Position numbers and translations under genes: made by a program. DNA of 64,000 bases, taken from Paraphysomonas bandaiensis (lineage: Eukaryota; Protista; Chrysophyceae). Shown piece after piece: positions 15,147-62,038 of the stretch; position 1 is the stretch's first letter, and the number at the start of each line of letters is the position of its first letter. Below the pieces are notes generated by a model. It searched no databases, was not told the origin of the DNA, and saw only the letters and a list, made by a program, of their open reading frames with translations. The stretch lies in NCBI GenBank assembly GCA_965644295.1, contig CBFFRP010000069.1, forward strand, positions 287,240 to 351,239. The letters are read 5' to 3'.

Positions 15147-16153
15147 TGTGACCACGTGGCATTTCCCATGCCCTATCTACGTGGCTATAGTATCACGCTA
15201 TTGAGTCACATGCATGGTTACATTGACTTTTAGGACCCTATGTTGGTTTAAGACCCTATATCAGGACCCTATATATTGCTTTAGGACCTTCATTGTGTTC
15301 AGGATACATATTATGCAACACCATTTGGACATTGGTAATGTACCACAGTGTACCTACATATTGAGCCAACGTTCGGGTATGATGTCCAATTTTATCTGCT
15401 GATGATGATGTACGACTATGATCTGCTGCTGGTGACTTCGGTCGATGTGAAACCTGCTGCAAATTTATATCAAAGTTATGTGGGCCCGTATTCCTGTATA
15501 GCAGTTGCAGTATATACTTCCATATACATACATACATGTATTACCCGTACTACCCTATAGGGGGGCAAGTACATGTGACCATCATAAGAGAGAAGTCGCT
15601 ATTGTACACTTGAGATGCACGAGTGTTTATGCAAGGCTTATTGGGGTTCGATTGCAAATGTGGTATGCGTACTATACGTACTATACGTACCGTATTTATG
15701 TATTTCCTGGATTATGGGGTTTTCAGTCTCTGGTAGGGTATAGATACGTAGTATACGGTGTACTCTCGGCATATGCTGGTGAGTCACTCCCTATCAGGTT
15801 GCTGTGTATTTTTCAGTTTTTGATTGAAGAGTTACGCAACCTGTGGTGGTGTGATGATACCACGTGTGTTGCACCATGTTAGGAGTGTGTGTGTGTGCAT
15901 ATATGCTTCTATGGTGTTCATCACTTGTTTTAAGTTAGACCAAAGCTTGGTGCTAGTGATCTTGGGTGCCAGCGGTATACCATTGCGCGGTGACTCTTCG
16001 CGGGAGTCACTAACTGAGTTTAGGTCTAAACTTGGAAAAAAGTGTTTTAATAATAATACCGTTATTACTGTGCTTGTTGGTTCAGTGTAGGTGTTGTTGT
16101 AGTTTTATTGTTTACGAGCCAACACCCTGGTTATCAAACCGGGTGTTGTTATA
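15147..16153 (+). repeat. Gypsy 3' LTR (1007 bp)
   Basis: Direct repeat of 7659-8663, preceded by a polypurine tract. Confidence 0.95.
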
Positions 16154-17919: not shown

Positions 17920-18098
17920 AGGTGTGTTTTAGTGGGTGAAAATCCCACATAACTGTATATCTAGTTGACTGCTAGATATATATGTATCTTTAAAAGATTT
18001 CACATCTGTTTTTACCTATGGGACTAGATAGTCATAGCATTATCAGATTATTGTGATCACTGTTGTTTTATCTCACTGCATTCTACATTGAGTGGGAG

Positions 18099-18392
18099 TA
18101 TTAGAATATGGATCTTATTCTAGTATATTCAGTATGTCACTTGAAGACAATGTACGAGAATACAGTGAAATATAGTGATGTACAAATGCTGTGATGATAT
18201 TGAGAAACTGAAATAGTTTGATCTTTCAAGATATGTTCAGTAACGAGAGGTTCGCATATGTAGGATATTATGCAGGGATTATAATGAGTTAGTGTTGGTT
18301 ATCACAACTTCGTGTAAACGATATTAATAAATCTATCTAGTCTTACGACAAATTCTCTCTGTGATCTAGTGTAAAATGAGCGTTTCTCAATA
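18099..18392 (+). repeat. Copia 3' LTR
   Basis: Direct repeat of 4251-4544 followed by TSD TATTT. Confidence 0.95.
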
Positions 18393-18763
18393 TATTTCGA
18401 AAAAACGATCCATAGTTGTCATTGCAAATGACTGATATCTGATATCATGGATACCGGCCGAATATAGCAAAGCAATGGATTCGCCTCGTCAGTGTATTTT
18501 CGCTGATATGGTCGCGAATAATAACAACACAAAAGTAAGGGGATAGTCATCACTAATATCCAGGAGCTCACAATGAGAATACATTAAGATATTACGTCGC
18601 ACGTCGTACCACATAATTATTATTAATATAATGTTATTCATAATCTGACCATATAAACTATATTAGAGTATGCAAGTAGATTTCGCTAAATGAACAAAAT
18701 ATATTCTGTCTATACACAGAGATTGACAAATCATGTAATCCACACACTGATGGCACAACCGCA

Positions 18764-39999: not shown

Positions 40000-40906
40000 G
40001 AGCTCGTTATACCAATTCGGCCACCACGGAATGGAAGTTGGCGGCCTCCTTCCTGCCCAATTTCTGCTCTGCGCCCTGTGAGAACAATGATGATGTTGCT
40101 GGAGATGCTGCTCTGCCTGTGACCGCTGCCTCCTCCAGCACCCGGTAGGCCCTCATTGACACCACTGCCTTGTCATCTATTATGCTCACATGCATACCTA
40201 AATACGACATGTCTCCGTCACAGTATTTTATCTCACCATATTGTTTCTTTAGTTGTTTCACCAACCACTCGATGTCACCCTTGTCTTGCGATAGCACCAG
40301 CAGATCATCCACATGTAGTGTTGTAGTTGAGAACACACTGATCCACCGGGTTGGCCACGAAACCAATGCTTTCCAGGTACGCTCTTATCGTGTTGTACCA
40401 TAGCTTTGCACTCTGTACATATCCATATAACGCTTTGTCTAGGCGCACCAATATTCTGCCTCTCTCATCAACATACGGCTGAATCGTAGGGTCGAGTTTT
40501 CTCAGTATTGTGGTCAACATCGGCTCCAATTCTATTATCACTTCTTCGCCAGTCATCTCTGCGTTAAGGTAGGCACCTCCTATGTCCACTGTTGATACAT
40601 GTCTCCCCTCTCTCGCCGCTATAGCTAGGCATACAAACACTGACTGTATGTCCACAGTGGGAGTTGACGTGTCTGGGTACAGTTTCCTGTCCTGTTGCGC
40701 CCCGTTCGCAACCAACCTCGCCTTGATTTTCTCGAATCTCCCTAGTATTTGGTCTTCAGGAACATCAGCGATCGAATTGTTCGTTTGAGCTGAGTCTTTG
40801 ACAGGTCACTCCGGTGGACTGGAACTACGACCTTTTTGTCATGTAGCAGCTGCTTCAGCTCCCGTGCTATCGTCAGGGACGCCTCTTTGCCATGTTCCTT
40901 TAAACC
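40000..40906 (-). pseudogene. Copia RT fragment (third copia lineage), frameshifted
   Basis: KIKARLVANG, VDIGGAYLNA, KALYGYVQSAKLW, LHVDDLL, YLGM motifs; no LTRs seen. Confidence 0.9.
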
Positions 40907-41065
40907 TTACAAAGTGTTCCAGTCCACCGGAGTGACCTGTCAAAGACTCAGCTCAAACGAACAATTCGATCGCTGATGTTCCTGAAGACCAAATACTAGG
41001 GAGATTCGAGAAAATCAAGGCGAGGTTGGTTGCGAACGGGGCGCAACAGGACAGGAAACTGTACC
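40676..41065. repeat. Perfect 150-bp inverted duplication (40676-40825 / 40916-41065), 90-bp spacer
   Basis: 40916-41065 is the reverse complement of the copia fragment 40676-40825. Confidence 0.95.
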
Positions 41066-44417: not shown

Positions 44418-45058
44418 TACCTACATACATACGTACATACATACATACATACATACATACATACCTACATACATACATACATACATACATGCATACATAC
44501 ATACATACATACATACATACATACATACATACATACATACATACATACATACATACATACATACATACATACATACATACATACATACATACATACATAC
44601 ATACATACATACATACATACATACATACATACATACATACATACATACATACATACATACATACATACATACATACATACATACATACATACATACATAC
44701 ATACATACATACATACAGACATACATACACATACAAACATACATACATACATACATACATACATACATACATACATACATACATACATACATACATACAT
44801 ACATACATACATACATACATACATACATACATACATACATACATACATACATACATACATACATACATACATACATACATACATACATACATACATACAT
44901 ACATACATACATACATACATACATACATACATACATACATACATACATACATACATACATACATACATACATACATACATACATACATACATACATACAT
45001 ACATACATACATACATACATACATACATACATACATACATACATACATACATACATAC
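44418..45058. repeat. (TACA)n microsatellite, ~160 units
   Basis: Directly visible. Confidence 0.99.
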
Positions 45059-46261
45059 TGTCACGCAGTTCTGGTTACTTATACTGCGTTATTAGAGTAT
45101 GATATGTTACTCTTCTGTTGTACTCTCTAACACGTACAGAGTGTTTTAGTATTTTCAGTTTTCAGTTTCATTTTCAGTTTCTACTCTCAGAGTGTTGAAG
45201 CTGTACATACATACCGGATAAAATACTTCTAATCGGGTGTGTTGTGTGTTGAAGTGAAATGCTGAACATGATGTATGTGTATGTGTGTGTTACACTGTAG
45301 AGATGTATAGCTGTGTTACTCATTCTTCTTCTATATAACGTTTTAATAACGATTCAATTAAGCTCATTCGCGGTTTGCGTTTGTGTGGAGGAGTTCTACC
45401 CGCTGGTAGACTTAACAGTGTAGCAGCCCGCTGGCGTACACTCTAAATCTGTTAAAACGTTTTTAGAGAGAGCTTTCTGTCATTCACGTGTTTCTAGTTC
45501 TCAGAAACATCACAGTAATATTACTCTGAGTAGAAGAACAGTAAACATTCATTTTGAGTTTAATTCATTTTGAGTGTTATGGAGGGAACAGATGATGGAG
45601 CTAAGGAGGAGCAGATTCCACTGTATATCCAGCAACTGTTTCAGCGTTTGGATAATATTGAACAACGTAATGAGCAGCGTGAACAACGTAATGAGCAGCG
45701 CTATCACGAGCAACAGGTGTTCAATCAGTATGTTCAACAGAGTCTCGAGGAGCTTCGAAAGAGGAGGTCACGAAAATCATCGAAGGCTGATTCGAAATCA
45801 GTACAAGGTGGTAAAAAAATCGTAGGTTACGGTTTCAGTGCTATGAATATGGAATTTGGTTCAGTGCAGCATTCTTCAAGTGTTGGTGTTGTTGTCGATT
45901 GTAGTTCTTCTATGGTTGAGTCTGTTGTGTCAGTGCAAGATGTTGATATCGGTGATGCAATTGTTGTTGTTGAGGTGGATGGTGAAACTGAGGAGTTGTC
46001 TACTGATATTGCCAGTGAGGATTCGGAACTTGCTGATGATGAGTGTTATGCTGTGCAGAATTTTGTTAATGATTTAGTCGATTCAGTTGTGCAGTATGAT
46101 GTGCAGTCTAATAAGCCACTTGAAACATTTGATTCGGTTGTTGATTTCCAAGTAGTTATTCAAGATAATGTTATTGATGCTGAGAATGATGTTCCAATTT
46201 TCTTTGGAAAAGAGACTACTGCCGATGATGCTACCGATGTATTCGAGCGCATGTCAGTCGT
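45059..46261 (+). mobile_element. 5' part of a putative LTR retroelement (LTR-like leader + coiled-coil gag-like ORF 45570-46274), truncated by the virus-like element
   Basis: Starts TGTCACGCA at the microsatellite edge; shares start, cgcggtttgc..ggagg block and ORF style with 61337-62038. Confidence 0.55.
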
Positions 46262-46493
46262 TGCCCCATTCTGAGCGCGTACTTAGGTAGATTCGGATGG
46301 GGGCCGGGTGGGTACCTAACTAATACTCGATTTAAGTCCCATATGTTATTTGCTAGCTACCTACTGAACCCAACTAGCTACATCATTATCACATGGTATT
46401 CAGCGCTGAATATGCAGTGAGACCCCGGGTGGGGTAGTGCTGAACTAAGCAATGTGTACATAGATAGAGGTGAGCAATCGCAGCAGCACTCAG
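46262..46493 (+). repeat. Left copy of 232-bp terminal direct repeat
   Basis: tgccccattctgag...gcagcactcag, ~99% identical to 59164-59394. Confidence 0.95.
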
Positions 46494-46907
46494 CAGCACC
46501 CACTAGGGGGCCGCACGCAGTAATTAGTTACGCTGTCAATATGGGGCACCCCCCATCCCCTATAAATCTACGCATATCATACACACAAAAACAAGCAACA
46601 CATAGTATATGCTGTATTCGGTATAGTGGGGAAAACACAATTCACTTATGCTTTCTACCTTTATGGACACGAAGCCCATTCAAATTCTTTGCGACAAACC
46701 CGCATATTGTACACACTAGTCTCATCTTCTCCTCCACGATATGGCACCACTAAAACTAGCACCACTAAGCTTAGCGTATTGGGTGAGAGAATGATCGAGT
46801 TCATCATCCTCGACCGACCCGTTGTTTCGCCGATGGTAGTCGGCGTTATTATATTGTTCAGAATTTACTGGATTGTATTGTGCCATTGACTATTTAATAA
46901 TTATTAT

Positions 46908-48539
46908 TTAATAAAAAATGCCAATATTACTTAATACATTTGTGGGAACCGTCCCCGATGTAGTATATATTACCGTAATTGTTTGAACAATCAACCCGCT
47001 ACTGGTCACATCCGAAACATCAACGTTCGCTAACCCACCTGCCGCTTGAATTGTATAAGACGTCGCATTAATTTTGCACGTATTGGCAAATGCCTTGTAG
47101 CTCGAAGTATCAATCAAAAGTGACACCGTAAAACTCGTGTGTGTAAACGCACCGGTGTTTACATTTGTTAGCAACAGCTCAAAATTGGTATTTGCCGCAA
47201 GATCAGAAAAGTAGACTACCGACCCGTTGTTGTAGTCATATGTCAACACATTTGATGAAAACGTATATGTGGTCGATACCGATTCCCGAATTTGTTTGGT
47301 TTGAACAGCTCCCGTGAAAACACCACCGGTTAGTCCCATTTTTGTATCAAGCTGAGATTGAATATCAGATCCCACGTTTTGTAAAAAATTAAGTTTCGTG
47401 TTGTTGACTGCACCCGTTCCAACCAAACCACAATCCAATCGATTACTCACAGTAATTGAATCATGTTTGCCAGCAACCGAAGCTTGCAACGTACTAATAT
47501 CACTGTTGATTTGGGTAAAATTAGCTTGGTCACCATCCTGTAATCCGGTCAACGTGTTGATTTGATTTTGTAACCCTGTCAAGTCACTTTGAATGGAACT
47601 ATCCACATCAACGTGTGCAAGCACATGACCGGTAAGATCGATATTAGCGGCGGCCAATTTATTAACCCCGTCAATGACATTTTGTTTTGATGTTTCGAGA
47701 TCGTTTATGTCACCCTCAATGTCGGTAATTACATTGGCCAACGTGTCGTCACGCACAACATCAAATACGAATGCCGAATCCAGTCGATGAGTATTGTCAA
47801 TTACATCGTGTTTGCTGTCGATATTAGATTGTAACACGGTGTCTTGTGTTTGGAGTGCCGTAATATCAGTTGTGTGTGTTGCCGTTGTTGTTTGGAGTGT
47901 CGCAATGTCCGATGCGTGGTTTGTGGTCAACGTTTGCAATGACCCAATCTCATTAGTATGGGTTGATATGTCGGAGACAATTCCATCAAGCTGGGTTTGT
48001 AGACTTGTTGAAATATCCACATGATCGAGTGGGGATCCTACTAAATCTACCACTCCCACGGGTAATTTATTCGTCGCATCGATGAGGTTATGTTTACCAT
48101 CAATATGAGTTTGAAGCACGGTGTCTTGTGTCTGGAGGGATGCAATATCCCCAGTATGGGTTGTAATACTTGCGGTGATCCCACCAAGTTGCGTTTGTAG
48201 ACTCGTCGAAATGTCAACATAATCGAGAGAACTACCTTGTAAATCCACCACCGAAACGGGTAATTTATTCAATCCATCGATGACGTCGTGTTTACTTGCT
48301 TGTAGCGATGTAATATCACTGTCGTTACTCGTAACTTGTGATTGAATGGATGCCAGCTGTGACGCAATTTGACTATCCGACAATCCACTTGCAGTGATGA
48401 GCTCGCCGGTCAATTTTCCACCAGATAATGGAAGGTAACTGTTCACAACCTCCACTGCTTCCAAAATATCATCGGTTGATCGATATTTGTAGTTGTATGG
48501 ATTAAATCGTTGATCTTTAATTGCAATATACTTGGCCAT
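46908..48539 (-). CDS. Fibre/spike-like virion protein with coiled-coil and ~40-aa repeats
   Basis: YLPLSGGKLTG and LTGGVFTG tail-fibre-like motifs; repeated KHxxIDxxNKL..VDISTSLQTQL; LNFLQNVGSDIQSQL; beta-rich C-terminal head. Confidence 0.7.
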   Translation of the reverse strand: MAKYIAIKDQRFNPYNYKYRSTDDILEAVEVVNSYLPLSGGKLTGELITASGLSDSQIASQLASIQSQVTSNDSDITSLQASKHDVIDGLNKLPVSVVDLQGSSLDYVDISTSLQTQLGGITASITTHTGDIASLQTQDTVLQTHIDGKHNLIDATNKLPVGVVDLVGSPLDHVDISTSLQTQLDGIVSDISTHTNEIGSLQTLTTNHASDIATLQTTTATHTTDITALQTQDTVLQSNIDSKHDVIDNTHRLDSAFVFDVVRDDTLANVITDIEGDINDLETSKQNVIDGVNKLAAANIDLTGHVLAHVDVDSSIQSDLTGLQNQINTLTGLQDGDQANFTQINSDISTLQASVAGKHDSITVSNRLDCGLVGTGAVNNTKLNFLQNVGSDIQSQLDTKMGLTGGVFTGAVQTKQIRESVSTTYTFSSNVLTYDYNNGSVVYFSDLAANTNFELLLTNVNTGAFTHTSFTVSLLIDTSSYKAFANTCKINATSYTIQAAGGLANVDVSDVTSSGLIVQTITVIYTTSGTVPTNVLSNIGIFY

Positions 48540-48583
48540 ATTATATATTATATTATTATTATATGATAGATGTCTACGTTTTA

Positions 48584-49132
48584 CTAATCAGTCGTTAATT
48601 TTAGAATACAAATGTGAAATTTTTCAATACAATCGCGCAATGCCGGAAAGTTAACCCCGTGCAACTCCCTTCGGAAAAACACCTCGACGTGGTCTGCATG
48701 GACATCAATGAGAACGGGTTCTGTTTGCAAAAAGAAAAAGTCGTCGGCAATTTTATGGAAATCCATAGAGTGAAACTTTGTGTTCACATATTCCACTCGA
48801 GATTTCACCACGTCCGGATTATTTCGCTCCGACAAATGAAAGCAATAGCAGACATCAGAGGGGGTGATTACTGATTCGTTGCAATCGATGGTCATGGTGA
48901 CCTGGATGTAGTATGTTCCCTTCTCCAAAACCTGTTTCATCCCAAAATCAATGTCACCAAGGTCTTCCCCGGTATGCATGATGCTAAAATGGCTGTGGCG
49001 GGTGATGTTGTAGTGACACGGTTCATAGAACGAATTAGGGACTGGCATTCTACGTTTAGAGTCAAGGTGAGTTGGCTTGTAGAATTTGTCGGGTTTGTGG
49101 TGTTTTGTTGGAGAACTGAACATCGGTAGCAC
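48584..49132 (-). CDS. Hypothetical beta-rich protein of the virus-like element
   Basis: 182-aa ORF tightly packed between integrase and fibre genes; alternating hydrophobic strands (GTYYIQVTMTI). Confidence 0.55.
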   Translation of the reverse strand: MLPMFSSPTKHHKPDKFYKPTHLDSKRRMPVPNSFYEPCHYNITRHSHFSIMHTGEDLGDIDFGMKQVLEKGTYYIQVTMTIDCNESVITPSDVCYCFHLSERNNPDVVKSRVEYVNTKFHSMDFHKIADDFFFLQTEPVLIDVHADHVEVFFRRELHGVNFPALRDCIEKFHICILKLTTD

Positions 49133-49139
49133 TTTAATA

Positions 49140-50423
49140 TTATGAATATGTTTTTCGAAGCCGATTTAGCGCATTTGCTTTTTCCATCGTATAATTTAAC
49201 CGAGTTTTGGGGTCGGGTTCGTGTTCAATTTTTTGTAAATGAGCACCAATGAGCCATTTAACTCGTGTTTCGTCATTATCATGTGATAAAAATTTCCCGT
49301 CTTCGGACTCGACTTTATACTTTCCACCTCGTTTTGCAACCACCGTGTACAGACCAACACTCCACCGGATTGCAATTTGTTTGTAGTTGTTATTTTTTTT
49401 ACGTTCTCTTACTTCCGGTATGAGCTCTAGAAGATTTATACGAACAGTATCTCCGACTTTTATTGGATCATGTACACGACGCATCGCTTTTTGTTTCTTC
49501 GATTTCGAGTGAGTACCTGACCATATTGCAATTGGAATTCCCACCCCTTCTACATATGAATGGTTGTAACTTTCTTCCGCCTCAGGTATATAATGAAACC
49601 ATTGCCGGTTTTTGTTACGGACCATAAGTCGACGAATAAGTGACCTGACATAGCCATTTGTACTCTCAACCAACGAAAGGGGTGTATAGGACATGTTTCG
49701 TTTGAGTTGTATACCATATTGTTCAGTAAAATCAGCTGAAAAGTTAAATTCACCTCCGTTGTCACACCGAATGACCTTAGGCCATGTATGATGGGGTATC
49801 GAATCAAGAAGCTGACCTATTTGTTTTTCAATTGAAGCGGCATTTTTCAACTTGGTTCGTCTCAACCATACTCGGCGACTGTACGAGTCTTGTACTGTTA
49901 ATATATATCGCCAAACATTCGTGGGGTATGTGCCATCGAACTTTTTCTTCATGTAGAAACTAAAATCAATGAGATCCATTTCCCATGCGCTATGTGGAGT
50001 CGTTTTATGAATATAAGACAACGTATGAGGTCTTGTTTTCGTTGTGGTATATTGGTAATCTTCTTGTCGTTTCAAAAACTTGGCAATATCACTTTTCTTG
50101 ATGCCTATGTATTGATGTTTTATTGTGTTGTACCATTTATTGATCCCACCCGGTACAAGTTCTTTATAGATAGTGGACAACACCTCGTCTATTTGCGACG
50201 GCAAAACGAATTGCAATTTCAATTCACCGTCCACATAAAATAGTTTATTATTTTTCAATTTGAAATGTTCCGGTGGCCATCGTTTCTCAAACAAATCTTT
50301 CTGACGATCGGTTAAATTAGAATTCCGAGCAAATCCACCTGTTCGTCGGAAACGTATAATATCATTGTGCACCGACTGATTATATTGCTTGCGATTCAGT
50401 TTATTTAAAAGTGCCGCATCCAT
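49140..50423 (-). CDS. Retroviral-type (rve, DDE) integrase of Polinton/virophage type, intact
   Basis: WEMDLIDF, ILTVQDSYSR, IRCDNGGEF, LVESTNG; C-terminal KVGDTVRI...RWS..YTV. Confidence 0.92.
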   Translation of the reverse strand: MDAALLNKLNRKQYNQSVHNDIIRFRRTGGFARNSNLTDRQKDLFEKRWPPEHFKLKNNKLFYVDGELKLQFVLPSQIDEVLSTIYKELVPGGINKWYNTIKHQYIGIKKSDIAKFLKRQEDYQYTTTKTRPHTLSYIHKTTPHSAWEMDLIDFSFYMKKKFDGTYPTNVWRYILTVQDSYSRRVWLRRTKLKNAASIEKQIGQLLDSIPHHTWPKVIRCDNGGEFNFSADFTEQYGIQLKRNMSYTPLSLVESTNGYVRSLIRRLMVRNKNRQWFHYIPEAEESYNHSYVEGVGIPIAIWSGTHSKSKKQKAMRRVHDPIKVGDTVRINLLELIPEVRERKKNNNYKQIAIRWSVGLYTVVAKRGGKYKVESEDGKFLSHDNDETRVKWLIGAHLQKIEHEPDPKTRLNYTMEKANALNRLRKTYS

Positions 50424-50452
50424 ACTTTTCTTTAGTTATTGTTCCGCATTTT

Positions 50453-51200
50453 TTATCCATCCACTATTATTTTTGACAAATCGAAGAATTCATTGTAATT
50501 CCGGCTTATTTTTTTTTGCATCAAGGGTGTCATGATGTCAAATTTCATAAAATCTGTCCTTTGTTCAGTACATACTCTATACATGCGGCGCAAATCAGCA
50601 ATTGGAATTCCCAGTGCATATGTTTTAAAATACGATTCAAATCCCCCACACATCGGCCAGCGATTTGATTATAAGGTGTGTTAGATTCTTGCGGCAAAGA
50701 TAGGGAATGTCATAAAACGATTGAGATATAAAACACGCAGTGATGTTATATTTGCGGCACCTAATATAGTAATCACTGATCATATCAAGATTCCGTTTGC
50801 CACTCGTAATAATATCATCAAATACAACCAGTGTTTGCAATCCCGTCTTCTTTCCAGAAAGATCTTCCAACCTGAATTCGCTGGGTTTCTCAAAAAACTC
50901 AATGCTTGATCCCAATTGCTCTTTCAGAAATTTATATAACGGCTCGCTGTGGTCGGGAATGCACACGACAATTTTAGCAAACGTATCGGGCATCTTGGAT
51001 ATTAAATCAACAAGACATTGCGTTTTCCCAGTACCACTACCACCAACAATGGCAAGACGGGCGGGGAGTGTGATTTGATTTTGGTAAAAATTTGGATTTG
51101 GACATTCTGTCTTGGCAAGACCTCCAATTTTCTCGTACCAGTTGTAAACGGTATTGCGATTGGTGGATACGGTTGTATTCTTAGACTTGCGGTTTGACAT
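50453..51200 (-). pseudogene. A32-like (FtsK-HerA superfamily) DNA packaging ATPase, frameshift near 50650
   Basis: Walker A GGSGTGKT, Walker B LVVFDD, A32 motifs RCRKYN and ISQSFYDIP; C-terminus continues in ORF 50453-50653. Confidence 0.9.
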
Positions 51201-51230
51201 AATAATGTACTTTTATAAATACGTATGTGT

Positions 51231-51387
51231 TTTTTTAATCGGGCGTCGGAATTGAATATATATATATAATCATTTTGACGCCCGAACCCTCCTAAATTGA
51301 TTGCCGTAGAAGTTTTTTTTAAAAAAACACACATAAAATTTTAATTCATTTCAAATCTATGTGTATTTTTTTCAGCCAATCAGAAAC
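51231..51387 (-). repeat. Palindromic intergenic module, copy A (inverted relative to the other copies)
   Basis: Reverse complement of 56875-57030; contains CGGGCGTC-(AT-rich)-GACGCCCG and CCAAT. Confidence 0.92.
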
Positions 51388-51405
51388 AAGAATAGAAATC
51401 ACGAA

Positions 51406-52294
51406 CTATTTTTTTACATATGATTGCATTGCTTCACCGACGGAGTGCCCCATTTCCTTTGCAGTTTGTGCCATTTCTTCCATGCTGGGTACATTTTTGT
51501 ATTTATGTGACAAGTATGCCTTTCGAAGCATGGATGTTCCCACTTTTTTTCCAAATATTGCGTTTAGTCGTTGCGTGATTGTCGATGGTGTAAGTTTTTG
51601 TTGATTTTTGTTAAAGAAAACAAATTCCACGCGAAGACCTTTTGTAATCTTTTTCCATCGCTTGAGTAATGACAACACCTCTCGATCAATTTTGATACGC
51701 TGCGTCCCATACGTATCTTTTGTTTTATACCGCTGGAAAACAAACTCCCGTTTCTCCCAGTCGATATAATTATACTTTTTACTGGGTTGTAGCTTCAGTT
51801 CACTATAGTCGAGTGACCGCCGCGGGAGAACTCCCATCACCCCGCTGCACAACGATAGAAGAATAAAAAGGATTGTATCTCCTGTAGCTGTTCCATACTC
51901 AATTGTTTGACATACATTAGTTTCATAATTTTTGGTTTCATTTGCGCGTGTATTCGGACCACCTCGGTAAAATCTACCCAATTGGCAGATTCGCGATCAG
52001 TTTTAGTTTGTTCTTTTTGTTTTGCATTGTAAATTTCAATATCTTCTTGCATGAGTCTACTATATATGTCATTACCCGTGAGTATATAAAGGGCCGAACA
52101 CGTCGTTTTACGTCGATTGATGTTTGGAATCCGTGTAATATAATCTATCAGTTGCTTTGTTTTATTTTGTATGTTGTCTTTTTACTAATACCCGTCGCAT
52201 TTAACGCGGAATTTATGAGTGACACGTACGTACGTACCGAACTGTCCGCCAATTTGGGTCGGTTAAAAAGAATAGTCTGTTTAATTGAATTCAT
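51406..52294 (-). pseudogene. PLV/virophage-type tyrosine recombinase, disrupted
   Basis: N-terminus RPKLADSSVRTY; LPRRSLDY, YKTKDTYG, MLRKAY, MGHS..AMQSY catalytic motifs; stops near 52145 and a frameshift near 51860. Confidence 0.88.
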
Positions 52295-52349
52295 TGCTTT
52301 TTATTAAACGTCATATAAAAATACGACGCAACCATTCATACAAAACCAA

Positions 52350-52736
52350 TCATTTACAAATTTGAATTAGTTTTGCCTTTAGCACAATTCCACACTTGCC
52401 ACATGATTTCCATGCATACACTTCCAAAATCATTCGAATCTTGGTTGATTTCGGAATGAGTTCACACAGTGGGATTTCAGCCGTGATTTTTTCTTTGTCG
52501 GTTCCCAACACCCCAATTTTGGTGAAGTCGGGAATCGGTTTGCGATTTTTTTTTACCACGGGCACCCGTATTGTGATCGTGTTTGGTTTCAAGTCATGAG
52601 ATGTTAGTATTGGTTGATAATCCAAATCACTAAAAAGTGCCTCCAAATATTCGTCCAATTCTCTAAACAACGCACGATATTCAATCGATTCATAGGTAAC
52701 CTGCAATTGAAGTTTTAGTAAACGGTCGAAATCGTG
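52350..52736 (-). pseudogene. C-terminal part of an NCLDV-type ssDNA-binding (DUF2738-like OB-fold) protein
   Basis: LDEYL..YQPIL..IPKSTKIRMIL..W..GKCGIVLKAKLIQI pattern; 5' part lost at the Crypton insertion. Confidence 0.6.
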
Positions 52737-52964
52737 CTAATTGTAAACCACAATCTACATTATTCTATTATACAGATCAGTATTCTATTATACAGTTCAG
52801 TACCGTATTATACAGCTCAGTATTGTGTAGTACAGTGTATTTATAGGCTAGTGCTGTTATCGCCATAGCTTGATGTCTAAAAGTGTCCATAACTATAGCG
52901 GTTAACACAGTATCAGTATTAAGCAATTTGAGCTATTTCACATTTCAATTGAATTACTATCATC

Positions 52965-55250
52965 GTGATGGAAGACTTGTGCTTGGTAGTGCAAGGTCAG
53001 CAGGAACGAAATATTCTAAATTCTTCAATGAGAGACTATTTGAGCCGCTGCCGAACTATGACCAGACTCATCAATGACATTGAGGGGTTACGTGAAGTGG
53101 CTCTTGATGTCGATGAGACTGGAGTGGCAAGGAAACATACTGGACTAGCCAAAGATGTTCTCAAACTGAAACTTCCAATGGCAGTACAAACAGCTAAACT
53201 CTTGTTCGCAAAAATTTCTGTAGACACCACATTACCAAAGAAGCGGAAACACGGTGGGCAAGACCCAGTGGAGAACCTTGATGATCCTGCTGTAGTTGAC
53301 ACTCACAACCCTGCTGCAAATAAAGTAACGGTTAGTGCACAGACTTATCAAAACTATAAGTCAGCCCTTAAATGGTGGCACTGTTACGATCGTCCTGACA
53401 TGGACAAAATAGGATCACCATGGCCAGGTGGAATGGACGAAGCCCTAAAAAAATCTATATCAAGTTACAAACGAGACATAGCAAGCAAGAAAAGAGCCGG
53501 CATTATGCGACAGAAAGAAGGAAAGGAGGCCTACAATCTCAATGGCTACATTGAAATTAATAAGGCTTTCGCTAGGATGAGGCCCACTGGAAAGCAACGA
53601 ACTTGGGATGAAGGAGTATTTGCCAGTCTGTTCACAGTATTATCTGTTTCAACTATTGGAAGGAGTGATAATGTTGATGATTGTTTGCTCTCCAACTTTG
53701 GATGGAGAAACGATGCACTAACAGTGGTGTTTGGAACTACCAAATCCGACCAGACAGGAGAAACAACTTCTGATATAAAACGCTGTTTTGCAAATCCATT
53801 TAAGCCTGACATATGCATCGTGCTGAAGCTTGCAGTTTATGTCCTGTGCACAAGACGGAATGGGGGAACAGGTGTACTACGTTTGTTTGAAGGAAGAGAG
53901 CAGAATAAGAGATATTACAACATATTGACGCAAGTCGTTCAGTCAATTGACGAATGTACCGATATCGGATGTTCAAAACATGATATTGGTACTCACAGCA
54001 ACAGGAAGTTTGCTGAATCAACTTCTGCATCTCGTATTGATGGGCCAAGTAAAACCCAGGTATGTTTAAGAGCTGGTCAGTCAGTAGGAAAAACTCAAGA
54101 CTGCTACATGTCGGCAGAGGAGGATGGTGACGCTTTGGTTGGAAGAACAGTTGCTCAACTAAAGTTTACTGCCGATGAGTTTGACGTTCTGCCACTACAT
54201 TTTGATATGGAAACATTGCAATACATAGGAAGTACGCTGGAATGGTCGAATATCATTCCAGACTACTATATGTATCCCGAACGATTTCGGGAGCAAGTCA
54301 TTCCCAAACTAGTAGCATCCGTCATATATCATCATAGGCATGGTGACCTTCAAAAGATGTATCCTCATGATCACCCAATATTCAATCAACGACTATTCAC
54401 TGATCCTATTGTGTACGATGCACTCAAAGATAAACCTATTCTATGCTTTGGTGAGTGTGAGAAGAGTAATATGTACGCTACGGGAGTTCCTGCTTTGATT
54501 CTTGTGTCCAGAGAAGTCAGACAGATTAGTGAACAATTTGAAGCGGAAAGAAATACCTGTCGTAATGACATTCGCGAGTTTAAAGAGACAGTGATGCATC
54601 AAATTGATGCAATGCGGACTGGTATGCCACAAGATTTGGTACGTGTGCTAACAGAGCGATTTGAAGTGAATGGCGTCATTCCATTAAGTCGAAGTGACGT
54701 AACGGCTAGTATAAATGAAATTCTCAGTCATCTAGAAGGCAATTTAATGGTATTAACGAGATGTGTAAAAGAATTAACTAATTCTGGTCGCGTGCAAACT
54801 ACGGCAGATGATGAAAGAAGCAGCGACAATTCAGGTGAATTAAAATCTCGTAATATTCATGTTTGGGAAGGTAGCCCTAATCTACATCGAGTACCTAAAG
54901 GATTTAAATTTCCCAGCTATGTAGTAGGTACAATGTGGAATCTATGGTTCTTGGGAAACCGGAGAGAGAACATTGGTCCATATAGATTCATTGCACCATC
55001 AGTGGATCTAGTAACCAGAGCCTGCAGAAATAACTTTAGCCGTTGCAAAAAAGTTATGTCAAAACTACTTGACATAGCTATCCACGACAACAAAATCACA
55101 CGGGCACAAGATATAACAAGGGACAACGAACAAGAAGTGTACGATTCTGCCTACACTAAGTTGCTACAGGATCTGTACGATGTCTACCCTAAACGACCCG
55201 CTACAATTAATATAAATACCATAGCCAACAAAATAAAAATTAGAAGGTAA
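52965..55250 (+). CDS. Crypton tyrosine recombinase with GCR1_C-like C-terminal domain, intact
   Basis: YQNYKSALKWW, IGRSDNV (R), TKSDQTG (K), GTHSNRK (HxxR), LRAGQS, QDCY (Y); C-terminal VPKGFKFP..MWNLWFLG..IGPYR. Confidence 0.85.
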   Translation: MMEDLCLVVQGQQERNILNSSMRDYLSRCRTMTRLINDIEGLREVALDVDETGVARKHTGLAKDVLKLKLPMAVQTAKLLFAKISVDTTLPKKRKHGGQDPVENLDDPAVVDTHNPAANKVTVSAQTYQNYKSALKWWHCYDRPDMDKIGSPWPGGMDEALKKSISSYKRDIASKKRAGIMRQKEGKEAYNLNGYIEINKAFARMRPTGKQRTWDEGVFASLFTVLSVSTIGRSDNVDDCLLSNFGWRNDALTVVFGTTKSDQTGETTSDIKRCFANPFKPDICIVLKLAVYVLCTRRNGGTGVLRLFEGREQNKRYYNILTQVVQSIDECTDIGCSKHDIGTHSNRKFAESTSASRIDGPSKTQVCLRAGQSVGKTQDCYMSAEEDGDALVGRTVAQLKFTADEFDVLPLHFDMETLQYIGSTLEWSNIIPDYYMYPERFREQVIPKLVASVIYHHRHGDLQKMYPHDHPIFNQRLFTDPIVYDALKDKPILCFGECEKSNMYATGVPALILVSREVRQISEQFEAERNTCRNDIREFKETVMHQIDAMRTGMPQDLVRVLTERFEVNGVIPLSRSDVTASINEILSHLEGNLMVLTRCVKELTNSGRVQTTADDERSSDNSGELKSRNIHVWEGSPNLHRVPKGFKFPSYVVGTMWNLWFLGNRRENIGPYRFIAPSVDLVTRACRNNFSRCKKVMSKLLDIAIHDNKITRAQDITRDNEQEVYDSAYTKLLQDLYDVYPKRPATININTIANKIKIRR

Positions 55251-55297
55251 GATATCAGCAAGCTTCAATTAATTTGAAAAAAGTAATAATAATCAAA

Positions 55298-56198
55298 CAA
55301 TAATAAAGCAACACAATACACACATACACACCTTACACTCTCAGCGTAAACACAATGCTCCTCACTGTAGCTATACACTCATGCCTCAGGATCATACGGA
55401 CTATGCATCAGAGGCTCCTCTTATATATTGCTGGATATATAATGCCATTAATAATACACAGCACACTGCATCGTACTATACTTACTTCATTGTGACCTCA
55501 AATGACAGGATGAATGGTATATCATATATATAATATATGTTCAGGGATGCTGCAGTAGTTCCGTACTGTAAGCTACAGTTAGCACCTCCACATATGATCA
55601 TCTCACAATGGGGACATCATACCATCATTCACACCTCATCAATCAATAATAAAGCAACACAATACACACATACACACCTTACACTCTCAGCGTAAACACA
55701 ATGCTCTTCACTGTAGTTATACACTCATGCCTCAGGATCATACGGACTATGCATCAGAGGCTCCTCTTATATATTGCTGGATATATAATGCCATTAATAA
55801 TACACAGCACACTGCATCGTACTATACTTACTTCATTGTGACCTCAAATGACAGGATGAATGGTATATCATATATATAATATATGTTCAGGGATGCTGCA
55901 GTAGTTCCGTACTGTAAGCTACAGTTAGCACCTCCACATATGATCATCTCACAATGGGGACATCATACCATCATTCACACCTCATCAATCAATAATAAAG
56001 CAACACAACACACACATACACACCTTACACTCTCAGCGTAAACACAATGCTCTTCACTCTAGTTATACACTCATGCCTCAGGATCATACGGACTATGCAT
56101 CAGAGGCTCCTCTTATATATTGCTGGATATATATTGCCATCAATAATACACAGCACACTGCATCGTACTATACTTACTTCATTGTGACCTCAAATGAC
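55298..56198. repeat. 346-bp tandem repeat, ~2.6 copies
   Basis: caataataaagcaacac at 55298, 55644, 55990. Confidence 0.95.
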
Positions 56199-56431
56199 CA
56201 CATGGCACTGTATCGTATTCTACTTACTTCACTGTGAGGTTAAATGACAGGATGAAGTATATCGTATTCATATATAGATATGGTTCTATAACAGCTAGAT
56301 TCTATATATATATATATATATGGTTCATCCTGCACTGTACAATCCCATACACTACTGCTATACTGTACAATCCTATATGTATTGCTCCTATACAATCCTA
56401 CAGTGATTTAAAAGTAGCATATTTCCCCTAT

Positions 56432-56747
56432 ACAGAAACAACAGTCGAATTGTGCGTGGATTTTTATATGAACCATAAACGAAACATCAAAAAACATGTT
56501 ATCACAATAGCACACAGCCATATTTTGTAACGGCTGAGTAGCATAAAAGTACGAGTTTTCTAAAATCCTTACCGCTGTCATATAAATCCGATGCGGCATA
56601 AGCAACTTTGAGTGGCTGCGTTTGAATGGTAAAGGCATGTTTATCATACTGAAACCCCGTCGTTTGAGTGAATGGAGTGTTCGACCAACGTTTGACAGTC
56701 AAAAGGGATGCATCGAAATTGTTGAGACGAATTGGTGTTGCTAACAT
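56432..56747 (-). pseudogene. N-terminal fragment(s) of SSB-like gene
   Basis: IRLNNFDASLLTV...FQYDKHAFTIQTQPL resembles the N-terminus of NCLDV SSB-like proteins; reading frame breaks down before the Crypton. Confidence 0.45.
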
Positions 56748-56866
56748 GGTTTGGTATTCGGTAATCATATAAATTGTGATAATTGTGAGAGCAAAGCAAC
56801 AAATATTGTGATGAAAAAGTATGATTGTTGCACAGAATAGAGTTCTAAAATGAATGGTGTAGGTTG

Positions 56867-57030
56867 AATCCTCGATTCTGATTGGCTGAAAAAAATACAC
56901 ATAGATTTGAAATGAATTAAAATTTTATGTGTGTTTTTTTAAAAAAAACTTCTACGGCAATCAATTTAGGAGGGTTCGGGCGTCAAAATGATTATATATA
57001 TATATTCAATTCCGACGCCCGAATAAAAAA
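56867..57030 (+). repeat. Palindromic intergenic module, copy B
   Basis: Near identical to the 58460-58968 units. Confidence 0.92.
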
Positions 57031-57144
57031 CTAAACTTCAAATCCTCGATTCTGATTCATGTGTTTTTTTAAAAATAAACTGGCACGGAATGTGGTGCGT
57101 TAGGGTGGAAATGAATTATCCTTATTTAGCATATATGCACTCTA

Positions 57145-57840
57145 CTACCAACTACAGTAATGTCGCCGCGCTGTGTAATTAATTACACAACGTAATACAA
57201 CGCACCGTAAGAGAACAATACTACATCCCCAACTCCCTTGGTACGCACAAGAAAAATTGAAAAGAATATTCACTTTGCTACCCACGGGAAATACACTGGG
57301 TAAAGATTTGACAGATGAAGTAATATCGTTTCCGCGTTTGTCTATTATCAGCACTTCCGATGGGTCAGGTACCCCCCAGGGGCCCGACACCGTGGTTGGG
57401 ATTTGTAAGGTGACAAATTTCGTATTGTCTTCTTTTTCTACCCTAAGCAGTGGAATGTAACCCCGCTCTTTAAGATTTTCTTTGCTGCGTTCCTGTGACA
57501 CTAACTGGTTATCAATTGCTATTATATTGCTATAATTTGAACACGACAGCGCAACAACATTCACTCTAAAATATTTTCGAGTCAGATTTGTCTGTTTGCT
57601 ATAGTTGGGTGCAATTCGTACGCCATTGAGTTTAAACAGCACTTCGCGCTGGCATGTTCTCTTTTTTTTAGTCGGTCCATAGAACATCGTTGACTTCAAT
57701 GTATATGCACTAACTCGATCAAACGGATCGAATCGTATATGGGACGGATTAATGTCGCTTAGTCGCATGATCTTTTTTCCCTCCGTGGGGTTACGGTAGC
57801 ACTTTTTGGTAGCCGATTTGCGTTGTTTGTCGGTTGTCAT
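57145..57840 (-). CDS. Putative NCLDV-type ssDNA-binding (DUF2738-like) protein
   Basis: RLSDINPSHIRF N-terminus, IIAIDNQL..YIPLL, FPVGSKVNILF....GCSIVLLRCVV; colinear similarity to 52350-52706. Confidence 0.55.
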   Translation of the reverse strand: MTTDKQRKSATKKCYRNPTEGKKIMRLSDINPSHIRFDPFDRVSAYTLKSTMFYGPTKKKRTCQREVLFKLNGVRIAPNYSKQTNLTRKYFRVNVVALSCSNYSNIIAIDNQLVSQERSKENLKERGYIPLLRVEKEDNTKFVTLQIPTTVSGPWGVPDPSEVLIIDKRGNDITSSVKSLPSVFPVGSKVNILFNFSCAYQGSWGCSIVLLRCVVLRCVINYTARRHYCSW

Positions 57841-57955
57841 GGAATTGCTTGGGTGGATTTCTTTTTATATCAGTTTTGCAAATTATATATATAATCATTT
57901 TTTTTTTAAATTGCCTGATTCACACCAAAAATGAAAGTATAATTGGTGCTCGCAT

Positions 57956-58141
57956 GAAAATTTGATTTGCATCAAACGAAAAAGTATAATGAATGGCTGA
58001 GAATAAATGTGTCATTGTACTAAATTATACTTTTGAGACCTGGTGTCCGCGGAAAATTTTGGTTTGCATCAAAAGAAAAAGTATAATGAATGGCTGAGAA
58101 TAAATGTGTCATTGTACTAAATTATACTTTTGAGACCTGGT
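57956..58141. repeat. ~97-bp tandem duplication with internal inverted repeat
   Basis: Two copies containing tttgcatc and aaaagtataat...attatactttt. Confidence 0.9.
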
Positions 58142-58459
58142 TGGTGCGGAGAATTACATGTATGATCATACCCCAACCCTAACCCTAATCGAAGAGTTTT
58201 TTACTTTTGCTATCCCCCTAAAATGAGCTACATGTTTATACAAACTGCATACCCCCGCTAAATTAAACCGTAGTATCAAATATATCTTGACCGTCAAAAA
58301 CCGATCTCAAACCCGTGAAATCATTTGGGAATGTCACATCAGATTGATACATGGTGTTGGTGAGTGCGGGTGGGCTTTGGTGGGGGCGGGTTGTATAACT
58401 ATTGATAAGTGAGAGTGAGCTCAACATTTTTTTGTTATTACATATGGGGTCAGAAAGAG

Positions 58460-58968
58460 CGATTCTGATTGGCTGAAAAAAACACACATAGATTTGAAAT
58501 GAATTAAAATTTTATGTGTGTTTTTTTAAAAAAAACTTCTACGGCAATCAATTTAGGAGGGTTCGGGCGTCAAAATGATTTTATATATATATTCAATTCC
58601 GACGCCCGATTAAAAAAATTGGAGTTCAAATCCTCGTTTCTGATTGGCTGAAAAAAACACACATAGAATTTAAATGAATTAAAATTTTATGTGTGTTTTT
58701 TGAAAAAAAACTTCTACGGCAATCAATTTAGGAGGGTTCGGGCGTCAAAATGATTTTATATATATATTCAATTCCGACGCCCGATTAAAAAAATTGGAGT
58801 TCAAATCCTCGTTTCTGATTGGCTGAAAAAAACACACATAGAATTTAAATGAATTAAAATTTTATGTGTGTTTTTTGAAAAAAAACTTCTACGGCAATCG
58901 ATTTAGGAGGGTTCGGGCGTCAAAATGATTTTATATATATATTCAATTCCGGCGCCCGAATAAAAAAA
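58460..58968 (+). repeat. Three tandem 175-bp copies of the palindromic module
   Basis: ctgattggctg at 58465, 58640, 58815. Confidence 0.95.
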
Positions 58969-59163
58969 TAAATATCTACTCTTGTCCCCAATTGGAGAAA
59001 TGGACTAGTCAACCATGCGGCCTGGTCCACGGCGACTTAGGGTAAGAAAAGGATGGTGGTCAAATGAGTCATGTGGGACACTCTCCTTATTAGTCACAGT
59101 GACGGAGTTGATCACATATGGGAATACTGTACTACAGTTGTATTTAGGAATACGGGTGGGGGG

Positions 59164-59394
59164 TGCCCCATTCTGAGTGCGTACTTAGGTAGATTCGGAT
59201 GGGGGCCGGTGGGTACCTAACTAATACTCGATTTAAGTCCCATATGTTATTTGCTAGCTACCTACTGAACCCAACTAGCTACATCATTATCACATGGTAT
59301 TCAGCGCTGAATATGCAGTGAGACCCCGGGTGGGGTAGTGCTGAACTAAGCAATGTGTACATAGATAGAGGTGAGCAATCGCAGCAGCACTCAG
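59164..59394 (+). repeat. Right copy of terminal direct repeat
   Basis: Matches 46262-46493. Confidence 0.95.
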
Positions 59395-61336
59395 TAACAG
59401 AAGTTGACATTATTTACTAAGGTTTACTATTCTCAACTGATAAGATGAAAATTATAAACATTACATGATAAAGAACCTAAGTTGTGTTCGATGTGTTCAA
59501 CACCATTCATTTACTACTATAGTGTACAAACCACACACTCAGTGATCGTATCCTGTATAGTCATCCACTTCTACTTCAGTTTCATACTACATAATATAAT
59601 GTACTAATTACATATATATCTTTCGATCCTTGCATCTCACATAATACTGCACTCAATTGCAAGTATATAGAATCTTCAGATCTCAACACTCCCCCTCAAT
59701 TGAGTGTTGTACTATGACGCCTCCCAGCTATTGAATGCCTGAGATAAAAAAATTCTTGACAGTAAAATAGACTCATCTCTAAGTCTAAACCTCTGTCTAA
59801 AAAACTCAGTACCTACTTGCGCCTTCTTTTATCCCTTGGTCCCTCATTAATCACTTCAGTGGAACTCTTAACTTTCTCTCCAAGATTTCTCTTTCTCTGC
59901 TCCATATATGATAAACCAACCAATGACTTTGTATAAATATCTGCTGCTTGTTGCGATGTATGCACATGCACTAACTTAATCGTATTGAACTGATTGGGAT
60001 CCACGTGCTCTCTCACCATGTGATACTTAATCTCAATGTGCTTCGACTTCTTGTGAAACACTGGGTTTTCGGCCAAATCCTGGGCACTCTGACTGTCGAT
60101 GAAGAATGGTGTGGGTTTGATGAGCCTCAACTTAATCTCACCCGTCACCCCCCGAACCCATAGCACTTCTTGGAGACCCGAGTAAATACACTGATACTCA
60201 GACTGCATGCTTGACGTTGCCACTGTCGTCTGCAGTTTGGACTGCCAGACTATAGGCCCTCCCGCTGCAAACCCAACGTACCCCGACGTGGACTTCCTGG
60301 AGAGCTGATCTCCCGCCCAATCCGCGTCAGTAAACATATGGAAGTCGAACCGTCTACTCCCATATTGAATCCCTTTGTCAATAGAACCACGAATATATTG
60401 CCATACATGTGTTAATAGCTTGCATACTTCAATATTCACCTTATTACTGAACCGAGACAGTACTCCCACTGCATAGGCAATATCCGGCCTCGTGTTCATC
60501 GATAGATATAGTAATGCACCTATCAGCGGCCGATATGGGAAGTTATCTACTATAAGCTGTTCCTCCTCGGTATGCTCATGCCGCGCCCCTTTTGCCACTA
60601 AATCCATTGCTTCCGCCGGTAGAGGACTCTTCCGTACCTTTCGCGGTGGCCCAAGATACTTTTCAAACTTTTCTAAGATCTTAGCCGCATATACTGATTG
60701 GTCAAGACGAATATACTCTGGCGTTCTTGTGACTCGAACATTCAGAAAATGTTCCATCTCGCCCATATCCTTCATATCAAACCGGGCACACAGTTGAGCT
60801 TTAATATCCTTCACTATGTTGACATCACGACCTAACACTAGGATATCATCCACATATATCGTTAATAATATCAATTCATCGCCCTTATACTGATAATACA
60901 AACACGGGTCTAATACACATGGTTTAAAATGCATAGATCGTATGAATTTATCCAATGTTTTCCACCACGACCGCGGGGAACTCCGAAGCCCGTATAACGA
61001 CTTCTTCAACTTAAAGCAGTACCCCTCAGGCAGCTGAAAGTCCGGAGTTGCCTTCATATATACATCCCCCTCTATATCTGCATATAGAAATGCGTTAGAC
61101 ACATCCAGTTGATGAATTACCATGTTCATCACGAAAGCTATGGCGATTAACAGTCGCACTGTTACCCCCTTAACAACGGGTGCGAAATGGTTCGCCCAAC
61201 CACTCGACTGCTGTCCACAACCGATTGCTACAAGACGAGCCTTATATCGGCGGACCTCTCCCTCCTTATCGTACTTTTTTCCATAGACGTACTTGGAGTG
61301 CAGTGGGACGACTCCGTCCGGTATACGAGTCACCTC
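59395..61336 (-). mobile_element. 3' part of a second copia element (RT-RNase H, PPT, truncated 3' LTR 59395-59688)
   Basis: On - strand: PPT ttgagggggag then TGTTGAG at 59688; RT ORF upstream; cut on both sides by other elements. Confidence 0.88.
59813..61336 (-). pseudogene. Copia RT-RNase H, 5'-truncated open frame
   Basis: YKARLVAIG, HQLDVSNAF, LYGLRSSPRSW, IYVDDIL, FTDADWAG, KHIEIKYH; related to the 16345-17919 protein. Confidence 0.92.
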
Positions 61337-62038
61337 TGTCACGCATACCTGTAGTTACTGTTATACGTGGAGTTATACGGTGTTATACTGCGGTACTCTA
61401 GGTAGCATGCTGTTGTACTTTCATTTTCAGTTTATTTAGTATACATTGCGGTTACTGTATTCTTGAAGGGATATAAGTCCCGTATATGTACAAGAATGAT
61501 ACTGTAAACTGTAGATGATTCACAGCAAGATAGAGTGTTGTATGATTTCACTTTTCTTTCTTTACACGTTTTAACGTAATTTAATTCATTCTATACTCGC
61601 GGTTTGCTTGTGTTAGGAGGCAGTTTCACCGGTTTGGTGTTCTGGACAGTGTATTCTCGGTTTGGGAAGCACTTTAAATTCATATAAAACGTTGTAAACA
61701 CGGTCTTTCTCATCAGAAAGATTACAGTATTAATACTTTAGTCGGATAGAAAGAAACATTGTTTATTTATATTATTGTCGACTATGAGTTCGGAAGAAGA
61801 GGTTTCAAAGATTATGGAGTTCCTTCAGCAGCGGTTTGCTGAACAAAATGAACAGTTTGCTGAACAAAAGCAGCGGTTTGCTGAACAACAAGAGCAGCTG
61901 AACAAGCGTTTTGAGTCCATCGATCTTCATTTCGAAATGTTCGAACAAAGATTGCAGCAGTTGGAGTCTCGACGTTCCTCAAGACGAGCGATTCCAGTTA
62001 ATTCAGATCTACTTCAGACCAGAACCGATGAGAACTGA
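61337..62038 (+). mobile_element. Putative LTR retroelement 5' end with coiled-coil gag-like ORF (61775-62038)
   Basis: Begins TGTCACGCA exactly where the copia RT frame is interrupted; similar to 45059-46261. Confidence 0.55.

What the first reader, a model, noticed from the sequence alone, without database searches (positions are those of the whole stretch)
46262..59394. Polinton-like/virophage-related element with packaging ATPase, fibre and two integrases but no visible capsid or polymerase
Seen: a discrete, repeat-bounded block of intronless co-oriented genes (fibre-like, beta-rich ORF, rve integrase, A32 ATPase, YR, SSB-like), about 9.5 kb without the Crypton. Known: PLVs, virophages and Polintons normally pair the A32 ATPase with a double jelly-roll capsid and carry pPolB or a primase/helicase. 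No ORF here is recognisable as either. Inference: since both ends appear present, this may be a helper-dependent satellite of PLVs or giant viruses rather than just a fragment.
Basis: partly seen in the sequence, partly recalled or inferred. Interest (0 to 1): 0.85.

Follow-up and report, generated by a model that had tools for sequence, protein, structure and literature searches.

The report
Capsid-less remnant of a Polinton-like virus
A 9.3-kb block of virus genes (packaging motor, fibre-like gene, two integrases) between two direct repeats has no recognisable capsid or polymerase gene and is likely a cut-down, decaying copy of a known kind of integrating protist virus, though a true capsid-borrowing satellite is not excluded.

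Summary
The anatomy is real: direct repeats (287 nt; right copy cut at 232 nt by a copia element) enclose fibre-like, 179-aa, rve, A32 ATPase, YR and two unassigned paralogous genes; a Crypton is a later insert. Profiles from relatives find no capsid, penton or protease remnant, and no replicase was seen. The ATPase, YR and rve match Gossevirus-type Polinton-like viruses (PLVs); two relatives carry rve+YR together with capsid, penton and replicase genes, and PLVs with direct repeats plus YR+rve are published. So the ends and the two integrases are not new. The window copy has a broken ATPase and YR; copies in public runs under four organism labels are broken in different genes, yet listed differences are mostly synonymous (25 of 47). 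The terminal repeat is a high-copy dispersed repeat, and both inner ends are multi-copy, so sister elements exist whose interiors I could not see. Best reading (0.55): internally deleted, non-autonomous PLV derivative. A stable helper-dependent satellite stays open (0.2). The decisive sister-copy test needs the genome, which is not held. The scan noted a similar case on other DNA.

The parts
46262..46548 (.). Left terminal direct repeat, 287 nt, TG..CA ends with its own ~20-nt imperfect inverted termini; high-copy in the host
   Evidence: bin depth about 80-400x the core in 4 of 4 runs, 17 contigs with differing flanks behind 46548 in X5
46529..46558 (.). Left arm of a 30-nt inverted repeat spanning the repeat/interior junction (partner 59154-59183); purine tract abuts each repeat on opposite strands; no TGG primer-binding site
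   Evidence: (I13, 83%)
46722..46886 (-). 54-aa stub, weakly like the N-terminal motif of fibre genes of the relatives
   Evidence: best of 2,577 six-frame segments, E 0.03 (weak)
46908..48539 (-). 543-aa fibre-like protein (coiled/repeat shaft, beta-rich tip); open frame; diverged paralogues of the tip in the same runs
   Evidence: no family over cut-off; weak hits E 1e-4 to 5e-3 to proteins of relatives; loose ends 47238, 47270
48584..49123 (-). 179-aa protein, predicted single beta-sandwich of jelly-roll/TNF-C1q type; likely spike or fibre-associated, too small for a double jelly-roll
   Evidence: 2 full-length homologues; pLDDT 57.5; best Z 8.4, rmsd 3.3, 106 aligned, tied with TNF-like and spike domains
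49140..50423 (-). rve integrase, 427 aa, open frame, D-D-E-like residues aligned with relatives
50453..51200 (-). A32 packaging ATPase of the Gossevirus-type family; frame broken near 50620-50650 here and in X1, open in X5, X8, X9
51231..51393 (-). Inverted copy of the element's 175-nt hairpin-forming repeat, upstream of the ATPase
51406..52300 (-). Tyrosine recombinase of PLV/virophage type in three pieces (breaks at 51865, 52179)
   Evidence: (profile positions 1-33, 46-150, 147-298)
52350..52717 (-).
   Evidence: empty site in X8, X9, X12
52712..56560 (+). Crypton-like insert (760-aa ORF 52968-55250, 346-nt tandem), bounded by 6-nt direct repeats; later, polymorphic insert
   Evidence: empty sites and one end-to-end junction; name rests on anatomy and PMC3212892 passages, no Pfam hit
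56555..56768 (-). N-terminal part of unassigned gene 1
   Evidence: X9 contig joins it to 52716
56868..57057 (+). 175-nt repeat, single copy
57145..57840 (-). Unassigned gene 2, 231 aa, weak paralogue of gene 1
   Evidence: (only a 96% identical copy)
58460..58972 (+). Three tandem copies of the 175-nt repeat; a 97-nt x2 tandem lies at 57944-58155
59164..59394 (.). Right terminal direct repeat, cut after 232 nt by a copia element (RT ORF 59813-61129)

Best explanation
This block carries the ATPase, fibre-like, rve and YR genes of a Gossevirus-type Polinton-like virus between direct repeats, and is likely an internally deleted, non-autonomous copy that has lost its capsid, penton, protease and replicase genes and is now decaying. 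Shown: gene set, absence of profile-detectable capsid remnants, relatives that hold the missing genes, copy-specific breaks. Inferred: the parent was a 16-25 kb PLV that would integrate and excise as a circle by YR recombination at the 287-nt repeat (leaving solo repeats, which would explain their high number); the missing genes would have been lost by rearrangement at the five internal 175-nt repeats, one of them inverted; any later movement would need proteins from complete sister viruses.
For: ATPase relatives: 65 of 80 loci carry a 550-700 aa capsid-like gene, 62 of the 65 with at least 7 kb held downstream; by eye that family matches MCP cluster PC_0014 = Gossevirus/GKS1 in PMC7805220 Tables S2, S4. 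L013 (24.8-kb contig) and L176 (16.4 kb) hold rve, YR, ATPase, fibre-like, MCP-like, penton-like and replicase-type genes; L084 holds replicase-type, protease-like, rve, fibres, ATPase, YR and ends there. The ATPase tree puts the window with L013, L084, L079 (85/89, below the starred bar; long branch). PLVs with ~266-nt direct repeats, YR plus rve and no TSD are published. Breaks differ by copy: window ATPase, YR, gene 1; X1 ATPase; X5 rve, an insertion in the 179-aa gene, one YR copy; X8 YR. A further deletion form (repeat joined to YR, 5.3 kb skipped) is seen in one X12 contig. A stub of a likely second fibre gene lies at the left end (weak).
Against: No complete sister with the same ends was seen; the relatives are only 26-47% identical. 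25 of 47 listed coding differences between copies are synonymous against 20-29% expected (p 0.0008; ATPase 5 of 6, 179-aa gene 5 of 7), so the genes were under selection until recently. The order fibre-ORF179-rve-ATPase is bridged in X1, X5 and X8 with no extra gene between. Gene order differs from L013/L084 (rve-fibres-ATPase-YR), and the 179-aa gene, genes 1 and 2 and the 175-nt repeat have no counterpart in any fetched relative.
Confidence: 0.55

Rival explanations
1. A stable satellite: it replicates with a helper's enzymes, uses the 175-nt hairpins as origin or promoter, and its own ATPase and fibre load its DNA into capsids made by a sibling Gossevirus-type PLV, like P4 or PICIs in bacteria (comparison recalled).
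For: Synonymous excess; same core order in three labels; both inner ends multi-copy (left 2-12x the core; right 3-5x in X5 and X8); contigs over the 179-aa gene and parts of rve in one marine poly-A run (X15; contigs do not prove transcription); unique genes absent from complete relatives.
Against: Each sampled copy has at least one broken gene; the core is one contig path per run, with no sign of many near-identical copies; selection could date from the complete parent; contigs break at the 175-nt repeat, so what lies beyond the ATPase in other copies is unknown.
Confidence: 0.2
2. A piece of PLV captured between two copies of a host LTR-like or MITE-like repeat and moved as a non-autonomous or composite transposon.
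For: TG..CA ends, purine tract before the right copy, pair 99.1% alike, repeat depth 80-400x the core and many different flanks; window rich in LTR elements; fibre stub at the left end; one poly-A loose end on the plus strand in X9.
Against: No TGG primer-binding site, whereas the copia in the same window has one; purine tracts on both sides in inverted symmetry; no gag or RT inside; repeat length fits published PLV direct repeats; diverged fibre tips share the depth rise next to the repeat.
Confidence: 0.2
3. The gene gaps and breaks are assembly artefacts.
For: PMC10120064 section 7 shows that stops in endogenous PLVs are often artefacts; both YR breaks lie in homopolymer runs; the 51865 break is absent from all runs that cover it.
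Against: X1 shares the ATPase break (0 gaps over 47028-51077) and X8 the 52179 break; independent contigs bridge the same gene order.
Confidence: 0.05

Closest known systems
Gossevirus (GKS1) group PLVs, Polintoviricetes-related (PMC7805220; 10.64898/2026.06.19.733378)
   Same: ATPase and YR families; rve+YR+fibre+ATPase together as in L013, L084, L176
   Different: No MCP, penton, protease or replicase; two unassigned paralogues, a 179-aa beta-sandwich gene and 175-nt hairpin repeats not seen in relatives
Tyrannomonas regina PLV-56 and PLV-78 (PMC12747079)
   Same: Terminal direct repeats of similar length (median 266 nt vs 287), YR plus rve in one element
   Different: Those are complete (MCP, mCP, primase-helicase) and of another MCP group; sequences not compared here; many solo repeats not mentioned in the section read
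Fragmented PLVs and virophages of Halocafeteria seosinensis (10.64898/2026.07.28.741278)
   Same: Lack core genes, some keep their ends; read by the authors as remnants or helper-dependent
   Different: Inverted repeats and TSDs there; no selection test in the passages read
Transpovirons (PMC11161782 passages)
   Same: Capsid-less PLV derivatives that depend on other viruses
   Different: They keep a pPolB-SF1 helicase and lose the whole structural module; this block lost the replicase and keeps ATPase and fibre

Membership tests
Gossevirus-type PLV | A32 ATPase of the group | tested here: met
   frame broken in this copy
Gossevirus-type PLV | Group-type double jelly-roll MCP | tested here: not met
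   profile of the relatives' MCP-like cluster finds nothing at E 0.05 in 2,577 six-frame segments; no spare ORF of that size
Gossevirus-type PLV | Penton (mCP) | tested here: inconclusive
   group profile no hit; the 179-aa protein is a predicted single jelly-roll-like sandwich with tied matches
Gossevirus-type PLV | Cysteine protease | tested here: not met
Gossevirus-type PLV | Replicase (pPolB or primase-helicase) | tested here: not met
   no Pfam/PHROG hit; no tblastn hit of element frames to the replicase genes of L013, L084, L176
Direct-repeat PLVs with YR+rve | Terminal direct repeats, YR and rve | tested here: met
Direct-repeat PLVs with YR+rve | No TSD; circular intermediate | not testable with these tools
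   right end interrupted by copia; only contigs available
Virophage (Maveriviricetes) | Virophage-type MCP in element or relatives | tested here: inconclusive
   relatives' MCP-like protein and profile match no PDB chain; by eye it matches the Gossevirus cluster instead
Transpoviron | pPolB-SF1 helicase replicase | tested here: not met
LTR retrotransposon (non-autonomous) | TG..CA repeats and polypurine tract | tested here: met
LTR retrotransposon (non-autonomous) | tRNA primer-binding site | tested here: not met
   with the window's copia as control
Helper-dependent satellite | Spread as the same capsid-less unit, packaged in helper capsids | not testable with these tools
   no genome; contigs break at repeats
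Crypton (insert 52712-56560) | Single long ORF, 4-6 nt terminal direct repeats, circle | tested here: met
   6-nt repeats, empty sites and one end-to-end junction, definition; YR domain itself not hit by Pfam

The most novel reading that the evidence does not exclude
A eukaryotic capsid pirate: a satellite of Polinton-like viruses that keeps its own packaging ATPase, fibre and integrases, borrows capsid and replicase from a sibling virus, and has left hundreds of solo 287-nt excision footprints in its marine host genome.
Probability: 0.2. Interest if true: 0.8.

Novelty: new variant of a known kind. Interest (0 to 1): 0.42.

Why it matters
As a remnant it adds a marine, direct-repeat-ended, YR+rve member to the Gossevirus-type PLVs and suggests that their terminal repeat can be a high-copy host repeat, a usable record of past integration and excision. 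If the capsid-less set spreads as a unit, it would be a satellite of a PLV (a parasite one level below virophages) with the opposite gene loss to transpovirons; my eight paper searches showed no such element, only the suggestion in one preprint.

Tried and rejected
No host genome. Single-sequence scans of viral contigs with the ATPase and fibre, and with the 179-aa alignment, found nothing. Repeat patterns: none in viral (95) or prokaryote contigs; 12 hairpin-pattern loci (96) had no blastn match to the repeat and were dropped as chance. ATPase alignment in prokaryote genomes: none. Fold searches of the 179-aa models list no double jelly-roll MCP standing out; low confidence, so this absence is not evidence. 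Atlas on a homologue gave nothing above 0.90. Trimer job: no verdict. Rfam and tRNA scans empty. The empty-site continuation of the left flank is not in the window. Giant-virus early-promoter motif (recalled): 4 in 12.6 kb, none upstream of a gene start. Runs with small shares that I did not lay (X13, X14, X16-X20) are not used. No cover of fibre in X9 and X15 is not used as evidence. Run depth is summed contig depth, not a copy number.
Full report
Observation. The finding's coordinates are right. Two direct repeats, 232 nt and 99.1% alike, lie at 46262-46493 and 59164-59394. The left copy continues to 46548 as a 287-nt unit with TG..CA ends; the right copy stops where a copia element begins (RT at 59813-61129). 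Between them all element genes are on the minus strand: a 543-aa fibre-like ORF, a 179-aa ORF, rve, A32 ATPase, YR and two unassigned ORFs. A Crypton-like insert with 6-nt direct repeats (52712-56560) splits one of the unassigned ORFs; without it the block is 9,290 nt. Five copies of a 175-nt hairpin-forming repeat lie inside, one inverted. The ATPase is in two frames and the YR in three.

Is anything a hidden capsid? Profiles of 45 protein clusters from 80 related viral loci were run over all 2,577 six-frame segments of the window; only ATPase and YR hit at E 0.05. The 179-aa protein has two full-length homologues at 28% among 1.84 billion representatives (4 hits in all, 2 of them short matches in repetitive proteins). 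Its model (pLDDT 57.5) is one beta-sandwich; the best match is an archaeal virus turret protein (Z 8.4, rmsd 3.3, 106 aligned), tied with TNF-like, spike and fibre domains. It is likely a spike-type protein; a penton role is undecided. The 'SSB-like' label could not be confirmed.

Relatives. An ATPase alignment found 453 stretches in viral contigs, of which the best 80 were kept. 65 of 80 carry a capsid-like gene, 63 a penton-like and 62 a protease-like gene; 62 of 65 with at least 7 kb downstream have the capsid-like gene. These labels rest on size, motif and comparison by eye with an annotated genome in PMC7805220 Table S2, whose MCP is cluster PC_0014, listed as GKS1, the Gossevirus group found in oomycete and chrysophyte genomes. 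Three contigs join rve, YR and this ATPase family: L013 and L176, both with capsid-like, penton-like and replicase-type genes, and L084, which ends after YR. They give the best rve hits among viral loci (26-27%). The ATPase tree groups the window with L013, L084 and L079 at 85/89, a long branch below the support bar (46 rows after removing near-duplicates). So two integrases are a trait of this lineage. PMC12747079 (section 14) describes complete PLVs with direct repeats of about 266 nt, YR plus rve and no TSD, which is the same end structure.

Other copies. Twenty of 23 listed runs hold part of the block, eight of them half or more, under four organism labels and marine metagenomes; one may be the window's source. 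In four laid runs the core is flat and follows one contig path, while the terminal repeat stands about 80-400 times deeper, with 17 contigs leaving its end into different flanks in X5; the left inner end stands 2-12 times deeper and shows diverged fibre tips. The right inner end is 3-5 times deeper in X5 and X8. Depth is summed contig depth and only indicates multiplicity. The Crypton is absent at this site in X8, X9 and X12 contigs, and one X12 contig joins its two ends. One X12 contig joins the repeat to YR, skipping 5.3 kb. Breaks differ by copy: ATPase broken in the window and X1 but open in X5, X8, X9; rve broken in X5, X9, X15; an insertion in the 179-aa gene in X5 and X9; one YR break shared with X8. 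Of 47 distinct listed coding differences, 25 are synonymous against 20-29% expected (p 0.0008 at 0.30). The lists are cut (40 of 302 rows, 40 of 49), X12 was not scored, sites are not independent, and fibre (2 of 6) and gene 1 (2 of 7) show no excess. One poly-A marine run has contigs over the 179-aa gene and parts of rve, which does not prove transcription.

Mechanism. Shown: a Gossevirus-type gene block without capsid and replicase, between near-identical direct repeats, with recent selection and copy-specific decay. Inferred: the parent integrated and excised by YR at the repeat through a circle; solo repeats are footprints or landing sites; internal repeats mediated loss and inversion; remaining mobility needs a complete sibling. 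This deletion reading gets 0.55. A stable satellite gets 0.2: it explains the synonymous excess and the unique genes but not the breaks in every copy or the low copy number. Capture by a host LTR-like repeat gets 0.2: ends and copy number fit, but there is no primer-binding site where the neighbouring copia has one. Artefact gets 0.05.

Comparison and novelty. It works like a non-autonomous PLV; it fails membership as a virus because the capsid, protease and replicase tests were not met. Halocafeteria fragments that keep their ends were already read as remnants or helper-dependent. Transpovirons keep the replicase and lose the structural module, the reverse of this block. New here are the high-copy terminal repeat, the hairpin repeats with two unassigned paralogues, and the selection signal. 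Look-ups by sequence and place returned nothing.

Papers seen: PMC12747079 (passages, section 14); 10.64898/2026.07.28.741278 (passages, section 5); 10.64898/2026.06.19.733378 (abstract, sections 5, 7); 10.64898/2026.10.13.758929 (abstract, section 13); PMC7805220 (passages, part of supplement 1); PMC10120064 (passages, section 7); PMC11161782, PMC3212892, PMC4642659, PMC8547959, PMC12220804 (passages). P4/PICI, TVpol motif reading and the promoter motif are recalled. The host group is not determined; a marine protist is inferred from the runs' habitat and the virus group.

Noticed in passing
window 52712-56560: Polymorphic Crypton-like insert; one X12 contig joins its right end to its left end (circle or tandem), and many internal-deletion joints are seen.
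   Followed up: partly
window 51231-57030: YR and gene 1 lie between two inverted copies of the 175-nt repeat (163 nt, 98%): a possible invertible or separately mobile cassette; its depth is about 1.5x the core in X1 and X5.
   Followed up: partly
window 52164: Poly-A loose end on the plus strand, antisense to YR, in one X9 contig (run kind uncertain).
   Followed up: no
window 45059-46261 and 61337-62038: Two copies, alike by eye, of a multi-copy element with a short coiled-coil ORF; the finding's left repeat is inserted in one of them; a 146-nt tandem array runs from 62039 to the window's end.
   Followed up: partly
window 4251-18393: Copia-type element with identical 295-nt LTRs, interrupted by a gypsy-type element with ~1.2-kb LTRs.
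   Followed up: partly
window 40676-41065: 150-nt perfect inverted repeat with 90-nt loop in a copia RT fragment.
   Followed up: no
window 27811-30032 and 44418-45058: 16-nt satellite (139 copies, extreme strand skew) and a 4-nt microsatellite.
   Followed up: no
L176 3256-3395 and 10818-10957; L175, L176: L176 has 140-nt direct repeats (99%) around ATPase, fibre, YR and penton-like genes; L175 and L176 each hold two penton-like genes.
   Followed up: no
L082 3910-6399: An 829-aa rve homologue inside a giant-virus-labelled contig.
   Followed up: no
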